Of a stretch of DNA of 13,257 bases, positions 1 to 13,257 are shown piece by piece (position 1 is the first letter of the stretch; every line of letters starts with the position of its first letter). Origin of the DNA: a virus (Duplodnaviria; Heunggongvirae; Uroviricota; Caudoviricetes). The translations under genes were made by a program, and so were the position numbers. The notes under the pieces are model-generated. The model ran no database searches. It was not told where the DNA came from and saw nothing but the letters and a program-made list of their open reading frames with translations. The stretch lies in the IMG/VR virus record IMGVR_UViG_2703719354_000002, one strand, 5' to 3'.

Positions 1-995
1 AACGCAGCCTCTGCCTTAATCAGCATCTCCTGCGCGGTATCAGGACGACCAATATCCAGCACCGCATCCCACATGGATTTGAAGGCCCGCGCAGTCCTGT
101 CTGCCCAGGTCTCCAGCGTGCCCATGTTCTCTTTCAGGCGGCGGGTCTGGTCATCAAACCCTTTCGTTGCGGCCTCGTTCGCCGCCTGCAATGCCCCGGC
201 TTCATCGCCGGAACGCTGCAACTGAGCAACATACGCAATCTGCTCCGCCGTCACGTTATGGAACTGGCGTGCCATCGCCGTCAGCCCCGACGTCGGGTCT
301 GTGGTCAGCTTCCCGAAGGCTTCAGCGACCTTGTCCACCTCCACGCCGGATGCAGAGGAGAAACGCGCCACACTCTGGCTGATGGACGCAATCTGAGCCT
401 CACCGCTTACCCCCGCCTTAACCAGTGCGCTGAGTGACTCGCTGGTCTGGTTAAACGTCAGCCCTGCCGCCTGCCCGGCTCTGGACAGGACCAGCATACG
501 ATCTGCCGTCAGTCCCGCCTGATTGCCGGAAAGGACCAGCGTTTTGTTGAAATCGGACAGGGTTGAGTTGCCCTGATACCAGGCATACGCCAGCGCACCG
601 GTCGCCACCGCCAGCGAGGTGGCCCCCACCATCGGCAGGGTGATCGCACCGGCAAGCCCCCTGAACATGGGGATCATCCCGCCGAAGGAGTCCTTCACCT
701 GCCCCCCCTGTTGCAGCAGGATCAGCCACGGACTTTGCCCGCCTGCAAGCTGCGTGGCCACGTCGGTGAACTGTGCAGGCAGCATACGCATGGCGGCTTT
801 ATACTGCCCGACGGAAATCCCCGCTTTCTGTGCAGCCAGCGCCTGTCGGCTCAGCGACTGTTCAACGACTGCCGCTGTTTTTTTCGCATCACTTTCCGTA
901 CCGGAAAAATGACGCCTGACTCTGGCCATCTGCTCGTCAAATCTGGCCGCATCCAGACTTAAATCAACGACCAGATCGCCTACCGGTTCAGCCAT
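1..995 (-). CDS. H: Tail tape measure protein gpH, N-terminal ~331 codons; rest of the gene lies beyond the window start
   Basis: Reverse complement from the ATG at 993..995 translates to MAEPVGDLVVDLSLDAARFDEQMARVRRHFSGTESDAKK..., which I recognise as the lambda gpH N-terminus. Open to the window edge; sits directly downstream of T as in lambda. Not in the ORF track because it is truncated. Confidence 0.88.
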   Translation of the reverse strand, partial: MAEPVGDLVVDLSLDAARFDEQMARVRRHFSGTESDAKKTAAVVEQSLSRQALAAQKAGISVGQYKAAMRMLPAQFTDVATQLAGGQSPWLILLQQGGQVKDSFGGMIPMFRGLAGAITLPMVGATSLAVATGALAYAWYQGNSTLSDFNKTLVLSGNQAGLTADRMLVLSRAGQAAGLTFNQTSESLSALVKAGVSGEAQIASISQSVARFSSASGVEVDKVAEAFGKLTTDPTSGLTAMARQFHNVTAEQIAYVAQLQRSGDEAGALQAANEAATKGFDDQTRRLKENMGTLETWADRTARAFKSMWDAVLDIGRPDTAQEMLIKAEAA

Positions 996-1428
996 ACCGG
1001 ACTCCTCCTGCGATCCCTTCTGATACTGTCATCAGCATTACGTCATCCTCCGTCATGTCCGCCACATCCGGGGAAGCGGGGATAACTTCATTCCCGTCCG
1101 GGCCAAAGCGGACGCCTCCGGCAAGCCCTGCCGCTTTCTGCATCAGCACATCATCTTCAGGCTCTTCGTCAGCCTCACGCCGGTTCAGCAGACTGAAATC
1201 CAGCGGATGCATATCCGGATCGCTGAAAAACAGGCTGAGCACGGTGTACGTCAGCCCGGAAAAGTGCATATCCAGCAGAACATCATGAAAATAATGGGTA
1301 CTGTAAAAGCGGTGCCAGTCGGCATACTCCGTGGATGACATCCCGGCAAGCATGGCACGCCAGTCGGGTCGCCCCGTCTCGCGCGCCAGTTTCAGGGCAA
1401 AACTCAGCTCACCGTCGAACACTTTCCC
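988..1428 (-). CDS. T: T reading frame, expressed only as the gpG-T fusion (tail assembly chaperone) after a -1 frameshift from G
   Basis: Track ORF 988..1422 (...FDGELSFALKLARETGRPDWRAMLAGM...) is in the -1 frame relative to G and begins right at the slippery heptamer. Matches lambda gpT as recalled. Confidence 0.85.
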   Translation of the reverse strand, partial: GKVFDGELSFALKLARETGRPDWRAMLAGMSSTEYADWHRFYSTHYFHDVLLDMHFSGLTYTVLSLFFSDPDMHPLDFSLLNRREADEEPEDDVLMQKAAGLAGGVRFGPDGNEVIPASPDVADMTEDDVMLMTVSEGIAGGVRYG

Positions 1429-1826
1429 GCAGAAACAGGCTCTGCAGGCCCGGCGTCCTCTGCCTGTTCAGGGGCATCATTCACCACAAACTCATACATA
1501 CCGGACAGCCGGTACACCACGTTTTCAGCATGAGAAATTGCCTCTGTGGGCCAGGTGGTAAGCACTTCCTGCTCAATCTGTTTAACGGCTTCATTCATGG
1601 AAGGCTGCTTTGTCTTCTGCGGATGGTTATGCCACAGGGACATCGCCACCACAAAAGCACCGGTTCTGATGGCGTCTTCCACTGTAAACTTCCGGTTGCT
1701 GTCTGACTCCGCCTGTTCTGCCTGCCGTTTCATCAGGGCGAGATGCTCAATACGCTGCAGGGCTGAAAGTTCAGAAAGCGTGACGGTCACGCCGTTATGT
1801 TCAAATGATTCGGTTTTCAGGAACAT
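1404..1826 (-). CDS. G: Tail assembly chaperone gpG (140 aa)
   Basis: Track ORF of 140 aa (MFLKTESFEHNGVTVTLSELSALQRIEHLALMKRQ...). Length, position between V and T, and sequence match lambda gpG. Confidence 0.9.
   Translation of the reverse strand: MFLKTESFEHNGVTVTLSELSALQRIEHLALMKRQAEQAESDSNRKFTVEDAIRTGAFVVAMSLWHNHPQKTKQPSMNEAVKQIEQEVLTTWPTEAISHAENVVYRLSGMYEFVVNDAPEQAEDAGPAEPVSAGKCSTVS
1422..1428 (-). other. Programmed -1 ribosomal frameshift slippery heptamer G GGA AAG (G to G-T)
   Basis: Plus strand ctttccc is GGGAAAG on the minus strand, in phase X XXY YYZ with the G frame (..GCG GGA AAG TGT..), 6 codons before the G stop. Shifted frame reads GKVFDGELS..., the T frame. Confidence 0.85.
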
Positions 1827-1841
1827 CGCTGACTCTCCGGA

Positions 1842-2582
1842 TTAACTGTCGGTGACAGTGATTTCTGCAACCGCAGCAAGTTCACCATTACCGGATACGA
1901 CCGGAATGTTGACCTTGCCTGCAGCAACACCTTTCACGGTGATGGTCATACCACTGACCGACACGGTGGCTTTTGTTTTATCCGCAGACACCGCACGGAA
2001 GCTCTTGTCGGTTGCGCCTTCCGGCTGAAATGCCACGGTCAGCGTGGTGCTCTGCCCTTTCACCACCGAGGTGCTGGCAGGCGTCACGGTCATGCCGGTT
2101 GCCGCTGTGACCGTGCTGCGATCTTCTGCCATCGACGGGCGTCCCACATTGGTGACCTTCACCGTGCGGGTGATCACTTCCTTCGCCGTCACTGCTTTAC
2201 CGATACTGCTGACCCAGCCACGGAACACATCGACCGTGCCGTTCGGGAAGCGGATTTTATAGGCACGGGTATCACCTTCATTAAACCACGCCAGCAGCGC
2301 CTGCTGCCCCTGCTCTCCGGGCATCCACGCCAGCGTGAAGCTGGTATCTCCGGCTGATTTCTGCCCCTGCCCGGTCGCAGTCCAGTCCGCATCTTCATCA
2401 TCGAGATAGCTGTCGTCATAGGACTCAGCGGTCAGTTCGCCGGGCGTCAGGTCTTTAACTTTTGCCAGACGCGACCAGTCAACGTCTGAAAGCGGATTCG
2501 CATAAGGGTCACCGCTCCCCTTATAAACCCACAGGGTGGTCCCGGCACCTTTCACCGGCATTACAGGATTTGGTACAGGCAT
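1842..2582 (-). CDS. V: Major tail tube protein gpV (246 aa)
   Basis: Track ORF 1842..2612; the internal start [27 protein letters not shown]... at 2580..2582 gives 246 aa, the lambda gpV length. The C-terminal region is rich in T/V/S/G, consistent with an Ig-like domain. Confidence 0.9.
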
Positions 2583-2589
2583 AGCGTCC

Positions 2590-2985
2590 TCACATTTCAT
2601 AGGTAATGACATAAGTCAGATCGGCTGAACTCCACAGGCCCGCATCATCGTCGCGTCGGTAGTCATAGCCACTGGCCACCATACTGGTGATCAACTCTGA
2701 CAGTGCCGGGATATCGCTCATCACCGGATAAATCCGGGACTCCATCCACGCATCCAGCTCTGAATCCGGCACCTGAGCAGGCAGGAAAACTTCGATATGC
2801 AGCTCCGCCTGCCAGGTATCGCTGTCCAGCTCTTCGCCCGTGTATTCAGCGCCGGTGAGATAAACGGCAACTGCCGGAAAATCCGCCTCATCAAAAACAG
2901 CGGGGCGACCATCAAAAAACGTCGCCCCGGTGTCATGCTTCTCCAGTGCATCCAGTACGGCTGCACGGAGTTCAGTATGTTTCAT
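2590..2985 (-). CDS. U: Tail terminator protein gpU (131 aa)
   Basis: Track [36 protein letters not shown]...; length and position match lambda gpU. 4-bp overlap with the Z stop. Confidence 0.9.
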
Positions 2986-3560
2986 CGCTTTATTACCATC
3001 CTCAGTTGATGCTGCAGCGCATAGCCCAGCTCTTTCGGAAGACGTTCACGCCGTATCCGCTCAATATTTTGTTTAAACGCCGTGGTCAGCGGCACCGCCA
3101 TCGGGATTTTCACCACATCAATGGGGTAACGGTTTTTCCCGGCCACACGCTGCATAACATGCCACCGGCCATTTTTCAGTTGCTGAATAAACGCGCCGGG
3201 AATACGACGGTTACCCACCACAAGCACGCTGCCGCCACCTTTCAGGGATGAACGCTGCCCCTTTTTACGACGCCTGCGGCGCGAAAGGACAACCCGCGCA
3301 TTACCCAGCTTGATTACGGGCAAATCCCCCCGGTTAACCTTGATTCTGGCCTGCGGATTTTTGACCGTGGCCCTTTTCAGCCTGGCCCTTTCCTTTACCA
3401 GTTTCCGGCGTACCTTTGTCTCACGGGCAACCTGTGACACCGACTGCGATATCGCGGATGAAGCAACGCGGTTAATGGCCATTGCGGCGGCACCGGGCAC
3501 CGCCGTTCTGCTGATACGGCTGAGGTTTTCAACGGCCTGCTCAAGACCTTTTATGGCCAT
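2982..3560 (-). CDS. Z: Tail completion protein gpZ (192 aa)
   Basis: Track ORF MAIKGLEQAVENLSRISRTAVPGAAAMAINRV...; 192 aa as in lambda gpZ. Confidence 0.9.
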   Translation of the reverse strand: MAIKGLEQAVENLSRISRTAVPGAAAMAINRVASSAISQSVSQVARETKVRRKLVKERARLKRATVKNPQARIKVNRGDLPVIKLGNARVVLSRRRRRKKGQRSSLKGGGSVLVVGNRRIPGAFIQQLKNGRWHVMQRVAGKNRYPIDVVKIPMAVPLTTAFKQNIERIRRERLPKELGYALQHQLRMVIKR

Positions 3561-3925
3561 ACATCCCCCTTCCAGCGGCGACGGTTAACGGCAGGCGGTA
3601 CGCCCCGCCCAAGCCAGAGATGACAGCTTCCGCCATCATCCGGCGAAATCCGGTCTATCCAGAAGTTTTCCTCACCGATGGTCAGCGTGTCGCCGCGCCG
3701 CAGCTGCCGCACATCATCAGTCCGGACAAACAGGGACGGGCTGGAGCCTTCAACGCGCACGCCCTGTCCGGCATAGCTGATATTTTCAGGGTCATCAAAA
3801 ACACCACGTATCACAGCACCGGACTGCTCACCGGATGTCATGGTGGCTGACGTTCCCATGTACCCGCGTATCGTTTCATCGGCGCAGGCAATGGCAGCAT
3901 CGAACAGGTTATCGAAATCAGCCAC
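3551..3925 (-). CDS. FII: Head-tail connector protein gpFII (124 aa here; C-terminus overlaps the Z start)
   Basis: Track ORF MADFDNLFDAAIACADETIRGYMGTSATMTSGEQSG... matches lambda gpFII. The ORF reads on through ...NRRRWKGDVWP and ends inside the start of Z. Confidence 0.88.
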   Translation of the reverse strand: MADFDNLFDAAIACADETIRGYMGTSATMTSGEQSGAVIRGVFDDPENISYAGQGVRVEGSSPSLFVRTDDVRQLRRGDTLTIGEENFWIDRISPDDGGSCHLWLGRGVPPAVNRRRWKGDVWP

Positions 3926-3936
3926 AGCGCCTCCCG

Positions 3937-4332
3937 TTATTGCATTCTGGCCAGGCCGCGCTCTGTCATTTCAGCTGCCACACCGGCAGAGACACGGAAC
4001 GCCGTTCCCGGCAGCACAAATGCCACAGCCTCATCCCGCGTGGCGTGAAGTGCATCAGTATGCAGCGTCACCAGTGCCACAACCGTGACCAGATCAGCCG
4101 TATCAGTCACGGTATCCGGCTGCGCTGATACAACCTCATTTTCATGTCCGGTCAGCGCATTTTCCGGGCTGACAGATGTGTCCTGACCGGCAGCGTCATC
4201 CGTGTCATCAAGCTCCTCTTCCAGCTCTGCCACACGGAGTGCCAGTTCTTCTTTCGTCCCCGTCAGGCTGACATCACGGTTCAGTTGCTCACCCAGCACC
4301 TGAAGACGGGCAATCAGTTCATCTTTCGTCAT
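3937..4332 (-). CDS. FI: Head assembly / DNA packaging accessory protein gpFI
   Basis: The internal start MTKDELIARLQVLGEQLNRDVSLTGTKEELALRVAELEEELDD... (ATG at 4330..4332) of track ORF 3937..4371 matches lambda gpFI, with an acidic linker and conserved C-terminus ...GVAAEMTERGLARMQ. Confidence 0.88.
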   Translation of the reverse strand: MTKDELIARLQVLGEQLNRDVSLTGTKEELALRVAELEEELDDTDDAAGQDTSVSPENALTGHENEVVSAQPDTVTDTADLVTVVALVTLHTDALHATRDEAVAFVLPGTAFRVSAGVAAEMTERGLARMQ

Positions 4333-4373
4333 GGACTCCTCCACAGAGAGAAAATGGCCCCGAAGGGCCATGA

Positions 4374-5399
4374 TTACGCCAGTTGTACGGACACGAACGC
4401 ATCAGGGTCAGCCAGCAGCATCAGCGGTGCTGACTGAATCATGGTGAACTCACGCGCCGGATCGCCGGTGGTCACCCAGTTTTTCGGGTAGCGGGCAGAG
4501 GCGTTAATACCTTCGCGCTGTGCGTCCGCATCCTGAATGCAGCCATAGGTGCGCAGACCGCGTGCCTGAGTGTTCCCCAGCACCATCGTGTTGTCCGGAA
4601 GGAAGTTCTTTTTGACGTCGTTTTCCACGTACTGTCCGGAATACACGACGATCGCCGTATCGCCATACATCCCCTTATAGGACACCGCTTCGCCCAGGTC
4701 TTTTACCGCTGTCTCCAGCTCGGAATGAGAGCCGCGACGGGTATCCAGCTTCTCCTTGACGGCTTTGAAGGAACGGAACAGCGCCCAGCCTTTCGGATCA
4801 AACACGATGATATTCACCACACCGCTGGCGTTCAGCGCGTAGGCTTCGATATCGTCGGTCGGGTCATACGTGGACTTGTCACGCTTGCTCCACTCCGTAC
4901 CGCCGGACTGCGTGATGTTGTTCGCCACACTGCGGCCCATATCCACTTCAACCGGATCGAAGGCTTCACCGGTCATGGTGTATTTGCCCTTAAGCACGGC
5001 AGAAACTGCCTGCATCTCTTCGACCTGAGCAATGGCCAGCTCTTCGTCTCGCATGTTCTGCAGGATGATGCGACGGCGGCGGTAAGCCGGGTCCGCCAGA
5101 TTCTGTGGATCTTCATCCGGCAGGCGACGCAGGGTCATCTGCGGATTCACTTCATGCTTGGGTTTGACATATCCCGGCGTAAATTCAGAGGTGGAGCCGC
5201 CACGGGAGCGGATAACCTCACCGGAAACAATCGGCGAAACGTACAGCGCCATGTTTACCAGTCCCGGAATTTGTGAGAGATAGACTTTCTCCGTGGTGAA
5301 GGGATAGCTCTCACGGAAAAAGAGACGCAGAAACAGCGGATCAAACTTAAATTTCTGCTCATTTGCCGCCAGCAGCTGGGCGGTTGTGTACATCGACAT
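4374..5399 (-). CDS. E: Major capsid protein gpE (341 aa)
   Basis: Track ORF 4374..5426; the start MSMYTTAQLLAANEQKFKFDPLFLRLFFRESYPFTTEKVYLSQIPGLVNMALYVSPIVSGEV... at 5397..5399 gives 341 aa, the lambda gpE length and sequence. Confidence 0.92.
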   Translation of the reverse strand: MSMYTTAQLLAANEQKFKFDPLFLRLFFRESYPFTTEKVYLSQIPGLVNMALYVSPIVSGEVIRSRGGSTSEFTPGYVKPKHEVNPQMTLRRLPDEDPQNLADPAYRRRRIILQNMRDEELAIAQVEEMQAVSAVLKGKYTMTGEAFDPVEVDMGRSVANNITQSGGTEWSKRDKSTYDPTDDIEAYALNASGVVNIIVFDPKGWALFRSFKAVKEKLDTRRGSHSELETAVKDLGEAVSYKGMYGDTAIVVYSGQYVENDVKKNFLPDNTMVLGNTQARGLRTYGCIQDADAQREGINASARYPKNWVTTGDPAREFTMIQSAPLMLLADPDAFVSVQLA

Positions 5400-5413
5400 A
5401 AAAAAATCCCGTA

Positions 5414-5435
5414 AAAAAAGCCGCACAGGCGGCCT
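5414..5435 (-). terminator. GC hairpin followed by a U7 tract in the D-E intergenic spacer (terminator-like or attenuating RNA structure)
   Basis: Minus-strand RNA would read ..GGCCGCcuguGCGGCuuuuuuu. Plus strand shows gccgc(5421-5425) acag gcggc(5430-5434) preceded by aaaaaaa (5414-5420). It lies inside a late operon, so it is unlikely to be a fully efficient terminator. Confidence 0.4.
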
Positions 5436-5454
5436 TTAGTGATGAAGGGTAAGG

Positions 5455-5787
5455 TTAAACGATGCTGATTGCCGTTCCGGCAAACGCGGTCCGTTTTTTC
5501 GTCTCATCGCTGGCAGCCTCCGGCCAGAGCACATCCTCATAACGGAACGTGCCGGACTTGTAGAACGTCAGCGTGGTGCTGGTCTGGTCAGCAGCAACCG
5601 CCAGAATGCCAACGGCAGCACCGTCGGTGGTGCCATCCCACGCAACCAGCTTACGGGTGGCGGTGTCCAGCATCAGCGGGGTCATTGCAGGCGCTTTCGC
5701 ACTCAATCCGCCGGGCGCGGTTGCGGTATGAGCCGGGTCACTGTTGCCCAGCGGCTGGTAATGGGTAAAGGTTTCTTTGCTCGTCAT
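5455..5787 (-). CDS. D: Head decoration protein gpD (110 aa)
   Basis: Track ORF 5455..5793; the start [27 protein letters not shown]... (ATG at 5785..5787) gives 110 aa as in lambda gpD. Confidence 0.92.
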
Positions 5788-5796
5788 AAACATCCC

Positions 5797-6402
5797 TTAC
5801 ACTGGTGTGTTCAGCAAATCGTTAACGGCATCAGATGCCGGGTTACCTGCAGCCAGCGGTGCCGGGGCACCCTGCATCAGACGATCCAGCGCAGTGTCAC
5901 TGCGCGCCTGTGCACTCTGTGGTGCTGCGGCCAGAATGCGGCGGGCCGTTTCCACGGTCATACCGGGGGTTTCTGCCAGCACGCGTGCCTGTTCTTCGCG
6001 TCCGTGAGCCTCCTCACAGTTGAGGATCCCCATAATGCGGCTGTTTTCTGCCGCAACCGCTGCGGTGATCTGCGCGTTCACGTCCGGCTGCGCCGCGCTG
6101 GCGTTTTCGCCCTCCGTCGCTGGCACCACGTCAGTAACGTCAGCCTGCGAAGCAGTGGCTGAAACAGTTGTTGATTGAGTCTCTTTGGTCATTCGCCCTC
6201 CTGAGAGACGGGATTTACGTGCATCCAGTGCATCACGCATGACGGTGATCGCATCGGTGCTGTTAACAAGTTCATCAGCCAGTCCGGCATCAATGGCCTC
6301 CTGACCGCTGTACACTGCAGCCTCGGTATCCAGCACAGCCTGCACGGACAGGCCGGTATATGCCGACACCTTCTGCGCAAACATCTGGCGGGTTGCGTCC
6401 AT
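5797..6402 (-). CDS. Nu3: Scaffolding protein gpNu3 (201 aa), translated in frame from an internal start within C
   Basis: In-frame ATG at 6400..6402 gives MDATRQMFAQKVSAYTGLSVQ... and 201 aa sharing the C stop. This is the known nested C/Nu3 arrangement of lambda. Confidence 0.8.
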   Translation of the reverse strand: MDATRQMFAQKVSAYTGLSVQAVLDTEAAVYSGQEAIDAGLADELVNSTDAITVMRDALDARKSRLSGGRMTKETQSTTVSATASQADVTDVVPATEGENASAAQPDVNAQITAAVAAENSRIMGILNCEEAHGREEQARVLAETPGMTVETARRILAAAPQSAQARSDTALDRLMQGAPAPLAAGNPASDAVNDLLNTPV

Positions 6403-7096
6403 CCGGTACTGCAGTGTCTCCCGGACGTCATCCGGAAGATGGCTGTAGGGGTTGCCATCCACCTTATGGCTGCCGCTGTAAATCAGCGTGATTTCCACAC
6501 CCTGTTTCTCCAGCGCAGCACCGTAATTACTGTGAGCCATCATGACGCCGATGGAGCCTGTCCGGGCGGTCTGCGTGACCAGACGCCGGGAGGCGGCACT
6601 GGCAAGCAACTGACCTGCACTGCAGTTCATGTCGTTGGCAAGCGCCCATACCGGTTTTATGTCACGCACACGGGCGATGATGTCAGCGCAGTCAAATGCC
6701 CCCGCCACCATCCCGCCGGGCGTGTCCATATCGAGCAGAATGCCGTCCACCATCGGATCGCTGGCAGCCTGTTGCAGACGGGCGATAATGCCGTTGTAAC
6801 CGGTCATCCCCGAGTACGGCTGCAGCGCCCGCGTCCGGCTGACCAGCGTGCCGGACACCGGCAGCACGGCGATGCCGTTCATGACCTGATAACTGCGGGC
6901 CTGTCGTGGTCCGTCATCATCACCGGATAATGCCAGCGTCGCGAGTGCCTCCTGGGCAGTCAGGCTGTCGCCGGACACCGCATCCGTCAGGCGGCTGATC
7001 CCAAGCTGGCCTGCAAGCGCACAAAAGAAAACCCGCGCATAGGCGGGTTCAAGCATCAGCGGCTCATTAAAAGCCATGCTGGCAATATGCGGGAGA

Positions 7097-7116
<20 letters not shown>
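5797..7116 (-). CDS. C: Head maturation protease / scaffold gpC (439 aa, GTG start)
   Basis: Track ORF 5797..7251 contains the lambda gpC sequence starting at the residue translated V in VTAELRNLPHIASMAFNEPLMLEPAYARVFF..., codon GTG at 7114..7116. This gives 439 aa and a 20-bp overlap with the B 3' end, as in lambda. ClpP/SppA-like serine protease region present. Confidence 0.88.
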
Positions 7117-10797
<3,681 letters not shown>

Positions 10798-10823
<26 letters not shown>

Positions 10824-11343
10824 TCAGCAACCCCGGTATCAGTTCATCCAGCGCGGCTGCTTTGTTCATGGCTTTGATGATATCCCGTTTCAGGAAATCA
10901 ACATGTCGGTTTTCCAGTTCCGGAAAACGCCGCTGCACCGACAGGGGGATCCCGTCGAGAATACTGGCAATTTCACCTGCGATCCGCGACAGCACGAAAG
11001 TACAGAATGCGGTTTCCACCACTTCAGCGGAGTCTCTGGCATTTTTCAGCTCCTGTGCGTCGGCCTGCGCACGCGTAAGTCGATGGCGTTCGTACTCAAT
11101 AGTCCCTGGCTGGAGATCTGTCTCGCTGGCCTGCCGCAGTTCTTCAACTTCCCGGCGCAGCTTTTCGTTCTCAATTTCAGCATCCCTTTCGGCATACCAT
11201 TTTATGGCGGCGGCAGAGTCATAAAGCACTTCATTACCCTTGCCACCACCCCGCAGAACGGGCATTCCCTGCTCCTGCCAGTTCTGAATGGTACGGATAC
11301 TCGCGCCGAAAATGTCAGCCAGCTGCTTTTTGTTGACTTCCAT
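10798..11343 (-). CDS. Nu1: Terminase small subunit gpNu1 (181 aa)
   Basis: Track ORF MEVNKKQLADIFGASIRTIQNWQEQGMPVLRGGGKGNEVLYDSAAAIKWYAERDAEIENEKLRRE... matches lambda gpNu1: N-terminal winged-HTH, C-terminal gpA-binding tail, and a cosB immediately upstream. Confidence 0.95.
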
Positions 11344-11520
11344 TGTTCATTCCACGGACAAAAACAGAGAAAGGAAACGACAGAGGCCAAAAAGCTCGTT
11401 TTCAGCACCTGTCGTTTCCTTTCTTTTCAGAGGGTGTTTTAAATAAAAACATTAAGTTACGACGAAGAAGAACGGAAACGCCTTAAACCGGAAAATTTTC
11501 ATAAATAGCGAAAACCCGCG
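11344..11520 (-). promoter_or_regulatory. cosB, lambda-type terminase small-subunit binding region (R1, R2, R3 with an AT-rich IHF-like spacer)
   Basis: Three GGAAACG-core elements at about 11371..11384 (aaggaaacgacaga), 11409..11423 (inverted, ctgtcgtttcctttc) and 11471..11482 (aacggaaacgcc), with an AT-rich segment at 11437..11465 between R3 and R2. Reverse complement matches the lambda left-end sequence with a few substitutions. Confidence 0.85.
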
Positions 11521-11532
11521 AGGTCGCCGCCC
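11521..11532 (-). other. cosN copy 1: 12-nt cohesive-end sequence (GGGCGGCGACCT on the phage strand)
   Basis: Plus strand aggtcgccgccc is the reverse complement of the lambda cohesive end GGGCGGCGACCT. Flanked by a lambda-like left end on one side and lambda-like right-end DNA on the other. Confidence 0.9.
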
Positions 11533-11731
11533 CGTAACCTGTCGGATCGCCGGAAAGGACCCGCAAAATGATAATAATTATCATCTACATGTCACAACGT
11601 GCATCTACGCCATCAAACCACGTCAAATAATCAATTATGACGCAGGTATCGTATTAATTGATCTGCGTCAACTTAACGTAAAAACAACTTCAGACAATAC
11701 AAATCAGCGACACTGAATACGGGGCAACCTC
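11533..11731 (-). other. Phage right-end (cosQ-containing) DNA adjacent to cosN, lambda-like with substitutions
   Basis: Reverse complement reads ...GAGGTTGCCCCGTATTCAGTGTCGCTGATTTGTATTGTCTGAAGTTGTTTTTACGTTAAGTTGA..GCAGATCAATTAATACGATACCTGCGTCATAATTGATTATTTGACGTGGTTTGATGG...GGTCCTTTCCGG.GATCCGACAGGTTACG, which matches the lambda right terminus as recalled with scattered mismatches. Homology to lambda stops near 11731. Confidence 0.75.
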
Positions 11732-11926
11732 ATGTCAACGAAGAACAGAACCCGCAGAACAACAACCCGCAACATCCGCTTTCCTAACCAAATGATTGAA
11801 CAAATTAACATCGCTCTTGAGCAAAAAGGGTCTGGGAATTTCTCAGCCTGGGTCATTGAAGCCTGCCGTCGGAGACTAACGTCAGAAAAGAGAGCATATA
11901 CATCAATCCAAAGTGATGATGGATGA
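11732..11926 (+). CDS. Small (64 aa) ribbon-helix-helix-like putative DNA-binding protein, copy 1
   Basis: Track ORF MSTKNRTRRTTTRNIRFPNQMIEQINIALEQKGSGNFSAWVIEACRRRLTSEKRAYTSIQSDDG: basic N-terminal arm, a short beta-strand-like NIRF, then two helices split by a KGSGN loop, typical of the Arc/MetJ/CopG fold. It may belong to the small YlcI/YnfO-like proteins found next to cos in E. coli lambdoid prophages, but that is from memory and unverified. Confidence 0.6.
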   Translation: MSTKNRTRRTTTRNIRFPNQMIEQINIALEQKGSGNFSAWVIEACRRRLTSEKRAYTSIQSDDG

Positions 11927-12074
11927 ACATCCCGGTTTCTTCCACCATCGCACCGGAAAAGCGACTATGAGGGTAACCCTGCGTCTGTCAGCACAGTAAA
12001 ACCCGGTGTGCATCGTTTTTGATTATTCCCGCACACTCACGCAGAAGGAATTCCCCGTCGGGCTACGGTCATGG

Positions 12075-12488
12075 TTAATGCGGGAATACGGCGACGATAC
12101 AGCGCAAAAACTGTCGCTGCATGGATAAAGGGATGGAATCAAGCGTACTGGATAACGCCATTGCCAGCTTACTGAGGGCAAAAATACAGAACCCGGTGTC
12201 AATAAGTTTTCCTTTTGACACCTCATTTTTTAACTGCTGTGTAACAGCCTGTTCTGCTGTCAGTTCCCATCTGGCAATAAGCAATTTCTCCTCATAGTCG
12301 TCTTCGCTATCGCCATCAGGCACATCGTTTTTACTTCTCCTCAGATACGATATGTAAAAATCGCGCCAGGCATCCAGATCCAGTTGCCCTCGCTTATTCG
12401 ATATCGGGGCACCCGGCAATTTCTGCAATCTGCGAAGCTGGCGATCGGTCAGACTTAAATGCCTGGCAACTTCAGTCTGCGTAGCCAC
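12075..12488 (-). CDS. Divergent, C-terminally truncated Nu1-like small terminase paralogue (137 aa, GTG start)
   Basis: Track ORF MATQTEVARHLSLTDRQLRRLQKLPGAPISNKRGQLDLDAWRDFYISY...DTGFCIFALSKLAMALSSTLDSIPLSMQRQFLRCIVAVFPH. Compared by eye with this window's own Nu1, the winged-HTH pattern and the central block align (ETAFCTFVLSRIAGEIASILDGIPLSVQRRF vs DTGFCIFALSKLAMALSSTLDSIPLSMQRQF), but the protein ends 9 aa after that block. GTG start at 12486..12488 preceded by GAGGTGAGGAG. Confidence 0.65.
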   Translation of the reverse strand: MATQTEVARHLSLTDRQLRRLQKLPGAPISNKRGQLDLDAWRDFYISYLRRSKNDVPDGDSEDDYEEKLLIARWELTAEQAVTQQLKNEVSKGKLIDTGFCIFALSKLAMALSSTLDSIPLSMQRQFLRCIVAVFPH

Positions 12489-12535
12489 TCCTCACCTCGC
12501 AAAAACTCTCACCTCACAATCACAACAAAACCGGT

Positions 12536-12634
12536 CATGTCCGGTTTACATGTCTGTTTTTTGTTCATGTCCGGTTCACAGAAGACCTGTTTTTATATTT
12601 TTCATATAGTTAACTTGAAGAGATACCGGACATG
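12536..12634. repeat. Three copies of the 9-bp motif CATGTCCGG (two direct, one inverted; 30 and 60 bp apart) between cosN copy 2 and the Nu1-like gene
   Basis: catgtccgg at 12536..12544 and 12566..12574 on the plus strand; ccggacatg at 12626..12634. It occupies the position where cosB sits relative to the first cos. Confidence 0.6.
12590..12620 (-). promoter_or_regulatory. Candidate sigma70-like promoter for the Nu1-like gene (weak -35 TTCAAG, 16-nt spacer, -10 TATAAA)
   Basis: Minus strand reads ttcaag-ttaactatatgaaaaa-tataaa. Judged by eye only; the -35 is a poor match. Confidence 0.25.
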
Positions 12635-12671
12635 GATCCCGGAAAATTTTCATAAATAGCGAAAACCCGCG

Positions 12672-12683
12672 AGGTCGCCGCCC
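12672..12683 (-). other. cosN copy 2, identical 12-nt cohesive-end sequence
   Basis: Second aggtcgccgccc, exactly 1151 bp from the first, inside the second repeat copy. Same right-end flank and the same 33 bp of left-end flank as copy 1. Confidence 0.85.
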
Positions 12684-12882
12684 CGTAACCTGTCGGATCG
12701 CCGGAAAGGACCCGCAAAATGATAATAATTATCATCTACATGTCACAACGTGCATCTACGCCATCAAACCACGTCAAATAATCAATTATGACGCAGGTAT
12801 CGTATTAATTGATCTGCGTCAACTTAACGTAAAAACAACTTCAGACAATACAAATCAGCGACACTGAATACGGGGCAACCTC

Positions 12883-13077
12883 ATGTCAACGAAGAACAGA
12901 ACCCGCAGAACAACAACCCGCAACATCCGCTTTCCTAACCAAATGATTGAACAAATTAACATCGCTCTTGAGCAAAAAGGGTCTGGGAATTTCTCAGCCT
13001 GGGTCATTGAAGCCTGCCGTCGGAGACTAACGTCAGAAAAGAGAGCATATACATCAATCCAAAGTGATGATGGATGA
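12883..13077 (+). CDS. Small ribbon-helix-helix-like protein, copy 2 (identical to 11732..11926)
   Basis: Track ORF with an identical 64-aa translation; lies within the second repeat copy. Confidence 0.6.
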   Translation: MSTKNRTRRTTTRNIRFPNQMIEQINIALEQKGSGNFSAWVIEACRRRLTSEKRAYTSIQSDDG

Positions 13078-13257
13078 ACATCCCGGTTTCTTCCACCATC
13101 GCACCGGAAAAGCGACTATGAGGGTAACCCTGCGTCTGTCAGCACAGTAAAACCCGGTGTGCATCGTTTTTGATTATTCCCGCACACTCACGCAGAAGGA
13201 ATTCCCCGTCGGGCTACGGTCATGGTTAATGCGGGAATACGGCGACGATACAGCGCA

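What the first reader, a model, noticed from the sequence alone, without database searches (positions are those of the whole stretch)
12075..12488. Nu1 paralogue that keeps the DNA-binding and central region but lacks the gpA-binding C-terminus
The 137-aa product aligns by eye with the resident Nu1: a different winged-HTH sequence at the N-terminus and a well conserved central block (FC.F.LS....A..LD.IPLS.QR.F), then it stops where Nu1 continues for about 40 residues. In lambda that C-terminal segment is the determinant for interaction with the large subunit gpA, and the N-terminal wHTH sets cosB specificity. No remnant of the missing C-terminus exists in any frame downstream, so this is replacement or truncation at a breakpoint, not a simple frameshift. 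Such a protein could bind its own site and possibly co-assemble with helper Nu1 without recruiting gpA, acting as a packaging redirector or inhibitor. It could equally be an inert decayed paralogue.
Basis: partly seen in the sequence, partly recalled or inferred. Interest (0 to 1): 0.75.

Follow-up and report, generated by a model that had tools for sequence, protein, structure and literature searches.

The report
Terminase gene cut by contig join
The "shortened Nu1 paralogue" is the first 127 codons of an ordinary, widespread prophage small-terminase gene that stops where two assembly fragments from different prophages appear to have been placed end to end, so it is most likely not a real gene variant.

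Summary
The 137-aa ORF (12075-12488, minus strand) exists and really is Nu1-like. It scores 43 bits against Pfam Phage_Nu1 and is 47% identical to the resident Nu1 over the central block.

Its first 127 residues are 100% identical to a common 169-aa small terminase (WP_000235436.1). That gene family occurs in about 1,700 of 5,426 complete E. coli genomes, where it is full length and followed by its own terL.

Similarity stops at a blunt junction, 12106|12107. The left side of the junction is a natural fork between Bor-type and Rha-type prophages, and the window ends at the same nucleotide of an exact 619-nt repeat. The right side is a recurrent contig end: the exact 127-aa "partial" protein is on record from 41 draft contigs. 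Window position 1 is also a recurrent contig end (a 331-aa "partial" tape-measure protein on 27 contigs).

The junction and the 137-aa product occur in none of the collections searched.

The best reading (about 0.85) is that two draft-assembly contigs, 1-12106 and 12107-13257, were abutted. A real recent recombinant carrying an inert gene fragment is the main rival (about 0.12). An Rpp-like packaging redirector is not excluded but has no support (about 0.02).

The parts
12108..12488 (-). Codons 1-127 of a 169-aa lambdoid small-terminase gene (here called terS_B; WP_000235436.1 / WP_052893166.1 type), with its native GTG start and Shine-Dalgarno sequence.
   Evidence: 100% identical in protein, and identical in DNA from 12107/12108 rightwards, to L001 and L002. 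Pfam PF07471 match.
12075..12107 (-). Ten out-of-context codons (LRCIVAVFPH) plus the stop codon. This is read-through into the end of the other sequence piece, which is the spacer that normally lies between ylcI and the Rha or Bor module.
   Evidence: Window 12040-12106 is identical to the Rha-side flank of L001/L002 and to PhiR11_1. The tail occurs in none of the proteins retrieved and read, and the whole 137-aa product is on record nowhere.
12106..12107 (.). Blunt junction with no microhomology. It is the proposed boundary between contig A (1-12106) and contig B (12107-13257).
   Evidence: Searches show the junction itself. Searches show the recurrent contig ends.
11488..12106 (.). Copy 1 of an exact 619-nt repeat. 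It holds the phage right end with cosQ and cosN, ylcI and a spacer, and ends at the natural Bor/Rha mosaic fork '...ACAGCGCA'.
12639..13257 (.). Copy 2 of the same repeat, 100% identical to copy 1. It ends at the last base of the window, which is the same fork nucleotide.
12530..12634 (.). cosB of the terS_B phage type. It has three CATGTCCGGT motifs at 12625-12634(-), 12566-12575(+) and 12536-12545(+), in the place where lambda has R3/R2/R1.
   Evidence: six matches in the window against 0.98 expected, with 0 of 200 shuffles reaching six. One search shows the alignment.
12672..12683 (-). Cohesive-end 12-mer GGGCGGCGACCT (cosN) belonging to the terS_B piece.
11521..11532 (-). Cohesive-end 12-mer (cosN) belonging to the lambda-type packaging module.
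11368..11480 (.). Lambda-type cosB, with R1 at 11368-11379(-), R2 at 11413-11424(+) and R3 at 11469-11480(-).
10798..11343 (-). Resident full-length lambda-type Nu1 (181 aa), followed by gpA at 8898-10823(-).
   Evidence: PF07471 at 335 bits over profile positions 1-164. One search gives the gpA context.
11732..11926 (+). ylcI/ynfO (DUF3950) gene inside repeat copy 1. A second copy lies at 12883-13077.

Best explanation
The truncated Nu1-like ORF is most likely not a biological gene. I read the window as two contigs of a short-read draft assembly of an E. coli strain with several lambdoid prophages, placed end to end without a spacer. Contig A (1-12106) is the late region of a lambda-like prophage: part of the tape-measure gene, the other tail and head genes, A, Nu1, lambda-type cos and ylcI. 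Contig B (12107-13257, 1,151 nt) comes from a second prophage and holds the first 381 nt of its ordinary 169-codon terS, its own cosB, cosN, cosQ and ylcI. Each contig was extended until the assembly graph forked. Both therefore run through the same identical 619-nt repeat and stop at the same fork, where Bor-type and Rha-type prophages diverge. Contig B starts at a fork inside terS, next to a P128/S128 polymorphism. Read across the join, the terS frame continues for 10 meaningless codons into the end of contig A and meets a stop, giving a 137-aa ORF that looks like a C-terminally truncated paralogue. In the real genome this terS is expected to be full length and followed by its own terL. Shown here: the identities, the forks and the absence of the junction elsewhere. 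Inferred: the act of concatenation, which I could not observe directly.
For: 1) ORF residues 1-127 are 100% identical to an intact 169-aa TerS, and DNA identity starts exactly at 12107/12108. The family is in 1,703 of 5,426 complete E. coli genomes. In the four annotated contexts that carry this allele it is next to terL.
2) The left side of the junction (12106) is a natural mosaic fork. Rha-type loci continue TAATGTG and Bor-type loci continue GCTAAAAGG after the same '...ACAGCGCA'.
3) The window ends at that same nucleotide in the second copy of the exact 619-nt repeat.
4) The right side of the junction is a recurrent contig end. The exact 127-aa product is on record as 'terminase small subunit, partial' on 41 contigs, fourth of the 15 members listed, 14 of them shorter than the 169-aa gene.
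5) Window position 1 is also a recurrent contig end. The exact 331-aa N-terminal piece of the tape-measure protein is on record as 'partial' on 27 contigs, the longest 15,362 nt.
6) The closest complete genomes hold window 1-12106 contiguously at 99.8% identity and then continue into the Bor/Iss module, not into terS.
7) The junction is blunt. It is absent from complete E. coli genomes, phages, plasmids, IMG/VR, GTDB representatives and JGI metagenomes. The 137-aa product is absent from the gene and protein indexes.
8) Ten different contexts of the identical gpA show no second Nu1-like gene upstream.
Against: I could not see the source record, its contig table or its reads, so the concatenation is inferred. 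A single real contig from a draft assembly would also end at the repeat fork. Base 12107 is the 'A' allele of the P128/S128 polymorphism. A simple SNP fork would put the contig start at 12108, so the fork in the source strain must lie one base further left than the L001/L002 difference. Contig breaks occur at many positions in this multi-copy gene, so the match at residue 127 is supportive, not unique. Real, idiosyncratic truncations of this gene are common in complete genomes, so a real junction is not implausible a priori.
Confidence: 0.85

Rival explanations
1. The junction is real. An illegitimate recombination or deletion between two lambdoid prophages joined terS_B codon 127 to the upstream end of the ylcI-cos segment of a lambda-like phage. 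The result would be a hybrid prophage with two complete cos sites 1,151 bp apart and an inert terS fragment between them. The fragment could still be transcribed by the late operon from its native ribosome-binding site. Lacking the TerL-binding tail, it would be a by-product with no role. On induction, lambda-type terminase would start at the cosB-lambda site and terminate at the first cosQ-cosN it meets, the upstream copy. The 1,151-bp segment would then be lost from virions and survive only in the prophage.
For: Independent truncations of this same gene are common in real genomes: a breakpoint at residue 121 (P0006, on a 4.7-Mb contig), a frameshift at residue 102 (P0016, on a 5.3-Mb contig), and breakpoints at residues 100 and 93. 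A real junction in a draft contig would itself create the fork at which the window ends. Both cos sites are complete. Termination needs only cosQ and cosN, while initiation needs cosB (PMC4669245).
Against: A random breakpoint would have to fall to the nucleotide on a pre-existing natural mosaic fork on one side, and on one of the most frequent contig-break positions of the gene on the other. There is no microhomology. The junction occurs in no other genome. There is no sequence divergence that would indicate age.
Confidence: 0.12
2. The junction is real and the 137-aa product is functional. It would be an Rpp-like decoy: a TerS with its own winged-HTH and oligomerisation region but no TerL-binding tail. 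It would bind the adjacent cosB_B or co-assemble with the resident Nu1, and so inhibit or redirect packaging.
For: The architecture (DNA-binding domain plus self-association region, 30-40 aa shorter than TerS, next to its own cos) resembles that of PICI Rpp proteins, which bind TerS and redirect packaging (PMC6739421; PMC9026076). The truncation point corresponds to lambda Nu1 F140|P141, the start of the roughly 40-residue TerL-binding segment (PMC9026076). The central block is 47% identical to the resident Nu1. The native start codon and ribosome-binding site are retained.
Against: It is a singleton with no conserved short form. The other short forms read here each end at a different point (residues 93, 94, 100, 102, 115, 121 and 122) and look like decay or contig ends. 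It has zero divergence from the intact allele, so there has been no time for selection. There is no sequence similarity to Rpp, and only a non-significant fold match (6hlk at rank 22, E 0.69). Rpp acts through the TerS DNA-binding domain interface, not the central block. All the evidence for an assembly artefact also applies.
Confidence: 0.02

Closest known systems
Full-length 169-aa 'terminase small subunit' of lambdoid prophages of EHEC/EPEC and other E. coli (WP_000235436.1, WP_052893166.1; Pfam Phage_Nu1)
   Same: Residues 1-127 are identical. The GTG start, the upstream cosB with three CATGTCCGGT motifs, cosN, cosQ and the ylcI neighbourhood are all the same.
   Different: The window ORF lacks residues 128-169 (PDLTPRHLDHLKTLIAKGANQCARAGDKLPDLLDEYIRATTE) and the overlapping terL. 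It carries 10 unrelated residues instead.
Lambda gpNu1 (TerS-lambda) and its engineered C-terminal deletions
   Same: [quoted passage not shown] The ORF ends at the residue equivalent to Nu1 F140. From my memory, not checked here, that matches the gpNu1-deltaP141 construct of Yang et al. 1999 (listed as reference 75 in PMC9611059). TerS-lambda lacking its last 30 residues binds TerL poorly.
   Different: Identity to Nu1 is only 37% overall. The DNA-binding domain sequence and the cosB motifs differ. The truncation here is most likely not biological.
Rpp proteins of Gram-negative cos-type PICIs (RppA 144 aa, RppC 153 aa)
   Same: They are TerS-like proteins with a winged-HTH and a dimerisation domain but no TerL-binding tail. 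They are encoded next to a cos with a different cosB, and they block and redirect helper packaging (PMC6739421; PMC9026076).
   Different: There is no detectable sequence similarity and no significant fold match. The window has no PICI context such as an integrase or replication module. Rpp is a conserved family, whereas this ORF is a singleton identical to an intact TerS.
Decayed terS and Nu1-like genes of cryptic prophages (NohA/NohD type; frameshifted or otherwise truncated terS_B copies)
   Same: It is a Nu1-family gene in an E. coli prophage context that is not a working terminase subunit as written. Many independent truncations of this very gene exist.
   Different: Those copies sit inside long contigs, up to megabases, and have their own junctions. 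This junction coincides with assembly forks on both sides and is found nowhere else.

Membership tests
Phage_Nu1 / lambda-type small terminase (PF07471) | Profile match above the curated Pfam threshold | tested here: met
   43.3 bits against a cut-off of 30, but only profile positions 62-140 of 164 are covered. The family profile against Nu1 gives 99.6% hhalign probability.
Phage_Nu1 / lambda-type small terminase (PF07471) | [quoted passage not shown] | tested here: inconclusive
   The AF2 model has mean pLDDT 70, with helices at 4-10, 15-22 and 38-54. The best Foldseek matches are MerR/excisionase-type wHTH domains, viral packaging DNA-binding domains and RppC, but all have E > 0.1. There is no PDB sequence hit.
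Phage_Nu1 / lambda-type small terminase (PF07471) | Conserved central self-association block | tested here: met
   47% identity to Nu1 over residues 73-127. Columns F100, L105, L116, D117, P120, L121 and R125 are invariant across 25 family members.
Phage_Nu1 / lambda-type small terminase (PF07471) | C-terminal TerL (gpA)-binding segment of about 40 residues | tested here: not met
   It is absent from the window ORF, which ends at F127 plus 10 unrelated residues, and no remnant exists. It is present in the identical full-length alleles elsewhere.
Phage_Nu1 / lambda-type small terminase (PF07471) | Gene immediately followed by, and overlapping, its terL | tested here: not met
   In the window the ORF is followed by the ylcI spacer and the lambda-type cos. 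In L001, L002, L014 and L015 the same gene overlaps terL.
Phage_Nu1 / lambda-type small terminase (PF07471) | Cognate cosB with repeated binding motifs between cosN and the gene start | tested here: met
   Three CATGTCCGGT motifs lie at 12536-12634, next to cosN at 12672-12683. Binding itself was not tested.
Rpp (PICI redirecting-phage-packaging protein) | Sequence or fold homology to RppA, RppB or RppC | tested here: not met
   phmmer and hmmsearch against the PDB do not recover 6HLK-type chains at E <= 10. Foldseek places 6hlk at rank 22 with E 0.69 and probability 0.25.
Rpp (PICI redirecting-phage-packaging protein) | Encoded in a phage-inducible chromosomal island lacking head and tail genes | tested here: not met
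   The window is a complete lambda-like head and tail late region.
Rpp (PICI redirecting-phage-packaging protein) | Conserved family of short (about 140-150 aa) TerS-like proteins without a TerL-binding tail | tested here: not met
   The 137-aa product is on record nowhere. The other short forms are heterogeneous truncations or contig-end partials.
Rpp (PICI redirecting-phage-packaging protein) | Forms a heterocomplex with helper TerS and switches cos specificity | not testable with these tools
   This needs pull-down, two-hybrid and packaging assays.
Contig-concatenation artefact | Both sides of the junction and both ends of the sequence coincide with recurrent contig ends or graph forks | tested here: met
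   12106 and 13257 lie at the Bor/Rha fork. For 12107/12108, the 127-aa 'partial' protein is on 41 contigs. For position 1, the 331-aa 'partial' protein is on 27 contigs.
Contig-concatenation artefact | Junction absent from independent assemblies of related genomes | tested here: met
Contig-concatenation artefact | Source record lists the two pieces as separate contigs, or no reads span the join | not testable with these tools
   The source of the window and its reads are not available.

The most novel reading that the evidence does not exclude
The join is real, and the prophage carries, upstream of its lambda-type packaging module, a second complete cos plus a freshly truncated foreign TerS that has the Rpp architecture: its own wHTH, an oligomerisation region and no TerL-binding tail. 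This would be a snapshot of how an Rpp-like packaging decoy or redirector could arise from a terS gene in one recombination step. The fragment might act as a dominant-negative partner of the resident Nu1, or occupy the upstream cosB.
Probability: 0.02. Interest if true: 0.6.

Novelty: not a real feature. Interest (0 to 1): 0.05.

Why it matters
If the ORF were real and active, it would be a natural analogue of the PICI Rpp proteins arising inside a phage. That would bear on how packaging hijackers evolve from terminase genes. As it stands, its value is cautionary. Multi-copy prophage genes are frequent contig-break points in draft E. coli assemblies. Reading across abutted contigs creates convincing-looking "domain-deleted paralogues". 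The check used here, looking up the exact contig-end "partial" proteins for both sides of a suspect junction, is a cheap way to recognise them.

Tried and rejected
1) Ancient, diverged paralogue. Rejected: residues 1-127 are 100% identical to an intact allele.
2) Frameshift, or decay with a remnant of the C-terminus. Rejected by tblastn and by DNA alignment against shuffled controls.
3) Simple tandem duplication. Rejected: the left-hand unit carries lambda-type cosB and Nu1 instead of terS_B, and only 619 nt are repeated.
4) A natural mosaic boundary inside terS at residue 127 in complete genomes. Not seen. Partial matches end at other positions, although one Logan contig protein (P0063) does diverge right after QRQF.
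5) Finding the source or a second instance of the junction. A 41-mer scan of IMG/VR, GTDB representatives and JGI metagenomes, megablast against complete E. coli genomes, phages and plasmids, and an exact protein look-up were all negative.
6) Looking up the contigs that carry the 127-aa partial protein.
7) PDB sequence searches for the DNA-binding domain. No hits to 1J9I-type or Rpp chains. The fold search gave only sub-threshold wHTH matches.
8) Checking whether window position 1 is a visible mosaic boundary by aligning three genomes. The result was only suggestive, because one of the three diverges there. The question was settled by the exact 'partial' protein look-up.

Full report
**What is in the window.** The window carries the late region of a lambda-like prophage on the minus strand. 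It starts inside the tape-measure gene, which is cut by position 1. It then runs through the tail and head genes to gpA (8898-10823) and a full-length lambda-type Nu1 (10798-11343). To the right of Nu1 lie a lambda-type cosB, with R1, R2 and R3 at 11368-11480, and the cohesive-end 12-mer at 11521-11532. Next comes a ylcI/ynfO (DUF3950) gene on the plus strand.

- BLASTP against the resident Nu1 gives 47% identity over the central block (ORF 73-127, Nu1 86-140; E 9e-16).
- Pfam Phage_Nu1 scores 43.3 bits against a cut-off of 30, covering profile positions 62-140 of 164.
- A profile of the ORF's family aligns colinearly with Nu1 over nearly the full length (99.6% probability, 37% identity).
- The ORF stops at the equivalent of Nu1 F140, and no remnant of the missing tail exists.

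**What the ORF is a piece of.** Residues 1-127 are 100% identical to a 169-aa "terminase small subunit" (WP_000235436.1, with a P128S variant WP_052893166.1). The family is found in 1,703 of 5,426 complete E. coli genomes. In the annotated loci that carry this allele (O145, a dog isolate, O157:H7, EPEC E2348/69) it is full length and overlaps its own terL. It is preceded there by the same cos region and ylcI. Its upstream region in the window has its own cohesive-end 12-mer (12672-12683). It also has three CATGTCCGGT motifs where lambda has R3, R2 and R1. The ORF is therefore not a diverged paralogue. It is the 5' 381 nt of an ordinary terS of a different lambdoid phage type, followed by 10 unrelated codons (LRCIVAVFPH) and a stop.

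**The junction.** DNA identity to the intact gene begins at 12107/12108. Identity to the spacer that normally follows ylcI ends at 12106. The join is blunt. An exact 619-nt direct repeat, 11488-12106 = 12639-13257, brackets the terS piece, and its second copy ends at the last base of the window. Three observations then point the same way.

1. **The left side of the junction is a natural fork.** After "...ACAGCGCA", Rha-type prophages continue TAATGTG and Bor/Iss-type lambda-like phages continue GCTAAAAGG. An assembly graph of any strain carrying both types forks at that nucleotide. The window also ends at the same nucleotide.
2. **The right side is a recurrent contig end.** The exact 127-aa product, ending ...MQRQF, is on record as "terminase small subunit, partial [Escherichia coli]" on 41 contigs. 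That is the fourth-highest contig count among the 15 listed members of its 583-member cluster, nearly all of them cut forms of this gene. A P128/S128 polymorphism sits at this very position.
3. **Window position 1 is a recurrent contig end too.** The exact 331-aa N-terminal piece of the tape-measure protein cut by position 1 is on record as "partial" on 27 contigs. The longest is 15,362 nt, which fits a contig of about 12 kb.

The closest complete genomes hold window 1-12106 as one block at 99.8% identity and then continue into the Bor/Iss module.

**The junction exists nowhere else.** A 311-nt probe across it finds no full-length match in 5,426 complete E. coli genomes or in PLSDB plasmids. 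No INPHARED phage covers 10700-13257 in one place. The 41-mer across the join is absent from IMG/VR, GTDB representatives and JGI metagenomes. The 137-aa product is absent from an index of 153 billion gene positions and from about 15 billion proteins. Ten different contexts of the identical gpA show no second Nu1-like gene upstream.

**Best explanation (confidence about 0.85).** The window is two draft-assembly contigs abutted without a spacer.
- Contig A (1-12106) was extended from the unique lambda-like late region. It stops leftwards at a fork in the tape-measure gene, and rightwards, after running through the shared ylcI-cos repeat, at the Bor/Rha fork.
- Contig B (12107-13257, 1,151 nt) was extended from the unique cosB/terS 5' region of a second prophage. 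It stops leftwards at a fork in terS, and rightwards after running through the same repeat to the same fork.

This accounts for the 100% identical repeat at the ends of both pieces, the blunt join, the coincidence of all three boundaries with forks, and the uniqueness of the join. Reading across it creates the apparent C-terminally truncated paralogue. The concatenation itself is inferred, because I could not see the source record or its reads. One detail does not fit neatly. Base 12107 carries the "A" allele, so the fork in the source strain must lie one base to the left of the L001/L002 difference.

**Rival 1: a real but inert fragment (about 0.12).** The junction could be a real illegitimate recombination between two prophages. 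That would give a hybrid prophage with two cos sites 1,151 bp apart and an inert terS fragment between them. Real truncations of this gene are common. Examples are a cut at residue 121 on a 4.7-Mb contig, a frameshift at residue 102, and cuts at residues 100 and 93 with unrelated read-through tails. A real event would, however, have to fall to the nucleotide on a pre-existing natural fork on one side and on a top contig-break position on the other. If it were real, established lambda biology makes a prediction. Initiation needs cosB, while termination needs only cosQ and cosN (PMC4669245). Lambda-type terminase would therefore start at the lambda-type cos and terminate at the upstream cos, dropping the 1,151-bp segment from virions.

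**Rival 2: an Rpp-like decoy (about 0.02).**
- PICI Rpp proteins are TerS-like, with a wHTH and a dimerisation domain, and are 30-40 residues shorter than TerS.
- They lack a TerL-binding tail, bind helper TerS and redirect packaging to a different cosB (PMC6739421; PMC9026076).
- The truncation point here matches the start of the roughly 40-residue TerL-binding segment of TerS-lambda.

The ORF fails the membership tests, however. It has no sequence or significant fold similarity to Rpp. It has no PICI context and no conserved short form. It shows zero divergence from the intact allele.

**N-terminal domain.** The AF2 model has mean pLDDT 70, with helices at 4-10, 15-22 and 38-54. Sub-threshold Foldseek matches to MerR/excisionase-type wHTH domains, to small-terminase DNA-binding domains and to RppC are compatible with a Nu1-like wHTH. 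They do not establish it.

**Verdict.** The feature is most likely not a real biological entity, and interest is low.

Noticed in passing
12530-12634: The cosB of the 169-aa TerS family has three CATGTCCGGT motifs at 12625-12634(-), 12566-12575(+) and 12536-12545(+), plus a one-mismatch palindromic partner at 12530-12539(-). They occupy the place of lambda R3/R2/R1, but both distal motifs are inverted relative to the cosN-proximal one, unlike in lambda. They are candidate TerS binding sites. I did not check whether they are described in the literature.
   Followed up: partly
L017 (NC_013364.1, 1724-2230); P0056, P0063, P0067: Natural DNA-binding-domain swapping occurs within this TerS family. 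Some alleles carry a completely different N-terminal ~70 aa (MAFLLNKSDMASSIGISVQAFDKWGVPP...) on the same central and C-terminal parts. This is consistent with modular exchange of cosB specificity.
   Followed up: no
12106 and 13257 (equivalent positions in L001 9150 and L003 4407): There is a sharp natural mosaic boundary. The conserved ylcI-cos right-end segment is joined at the same nucleotide either to a Rha-regulator and lysis module or to a Bor/Iss module in different lambdoid prophages.
   Followed up: partly
NZ_CP148748.1 (L021) and NZ_CP069918.1 (L022): Two deposited 'plasmids' consist only of a lambda-like prophage late region, from tape measure through Nu1 to ylcI. One is a 14,065-bp circular E. 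coli record and the other a 15,740-bp 'Klebsiella oxytoca plasmid unnamed7'. They look like assembly leftovers or contamination rather than plasmids.
   Followed up: no
P0006, P0009, P0012, P0016, P0018, P0025, P0027 (homologues): There are many independent disruptions of this terS: a frameshift at residue 102 and breakpoints at residues 93, 94, 100, 115, 121 and 122. P0006, P0016 and P0018 lie on megabase-scale contigs, while the others are known only from contigs of 1 to 116 kb. This shows frequent decay of the packaging module.
   Followed up: partly
11732-11926 and 12883-13077 (+): The ylcI/ynfO (DUF3950) gene sits antisense to the late operon, immediately upstream of cosQ, in both repeat copies. 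sigma-70-like promoter matches occur on the minus strand at 11595-11568 and 12746-12719. The function of this conserved small gene next to cos is unknown.
   Followed up: no
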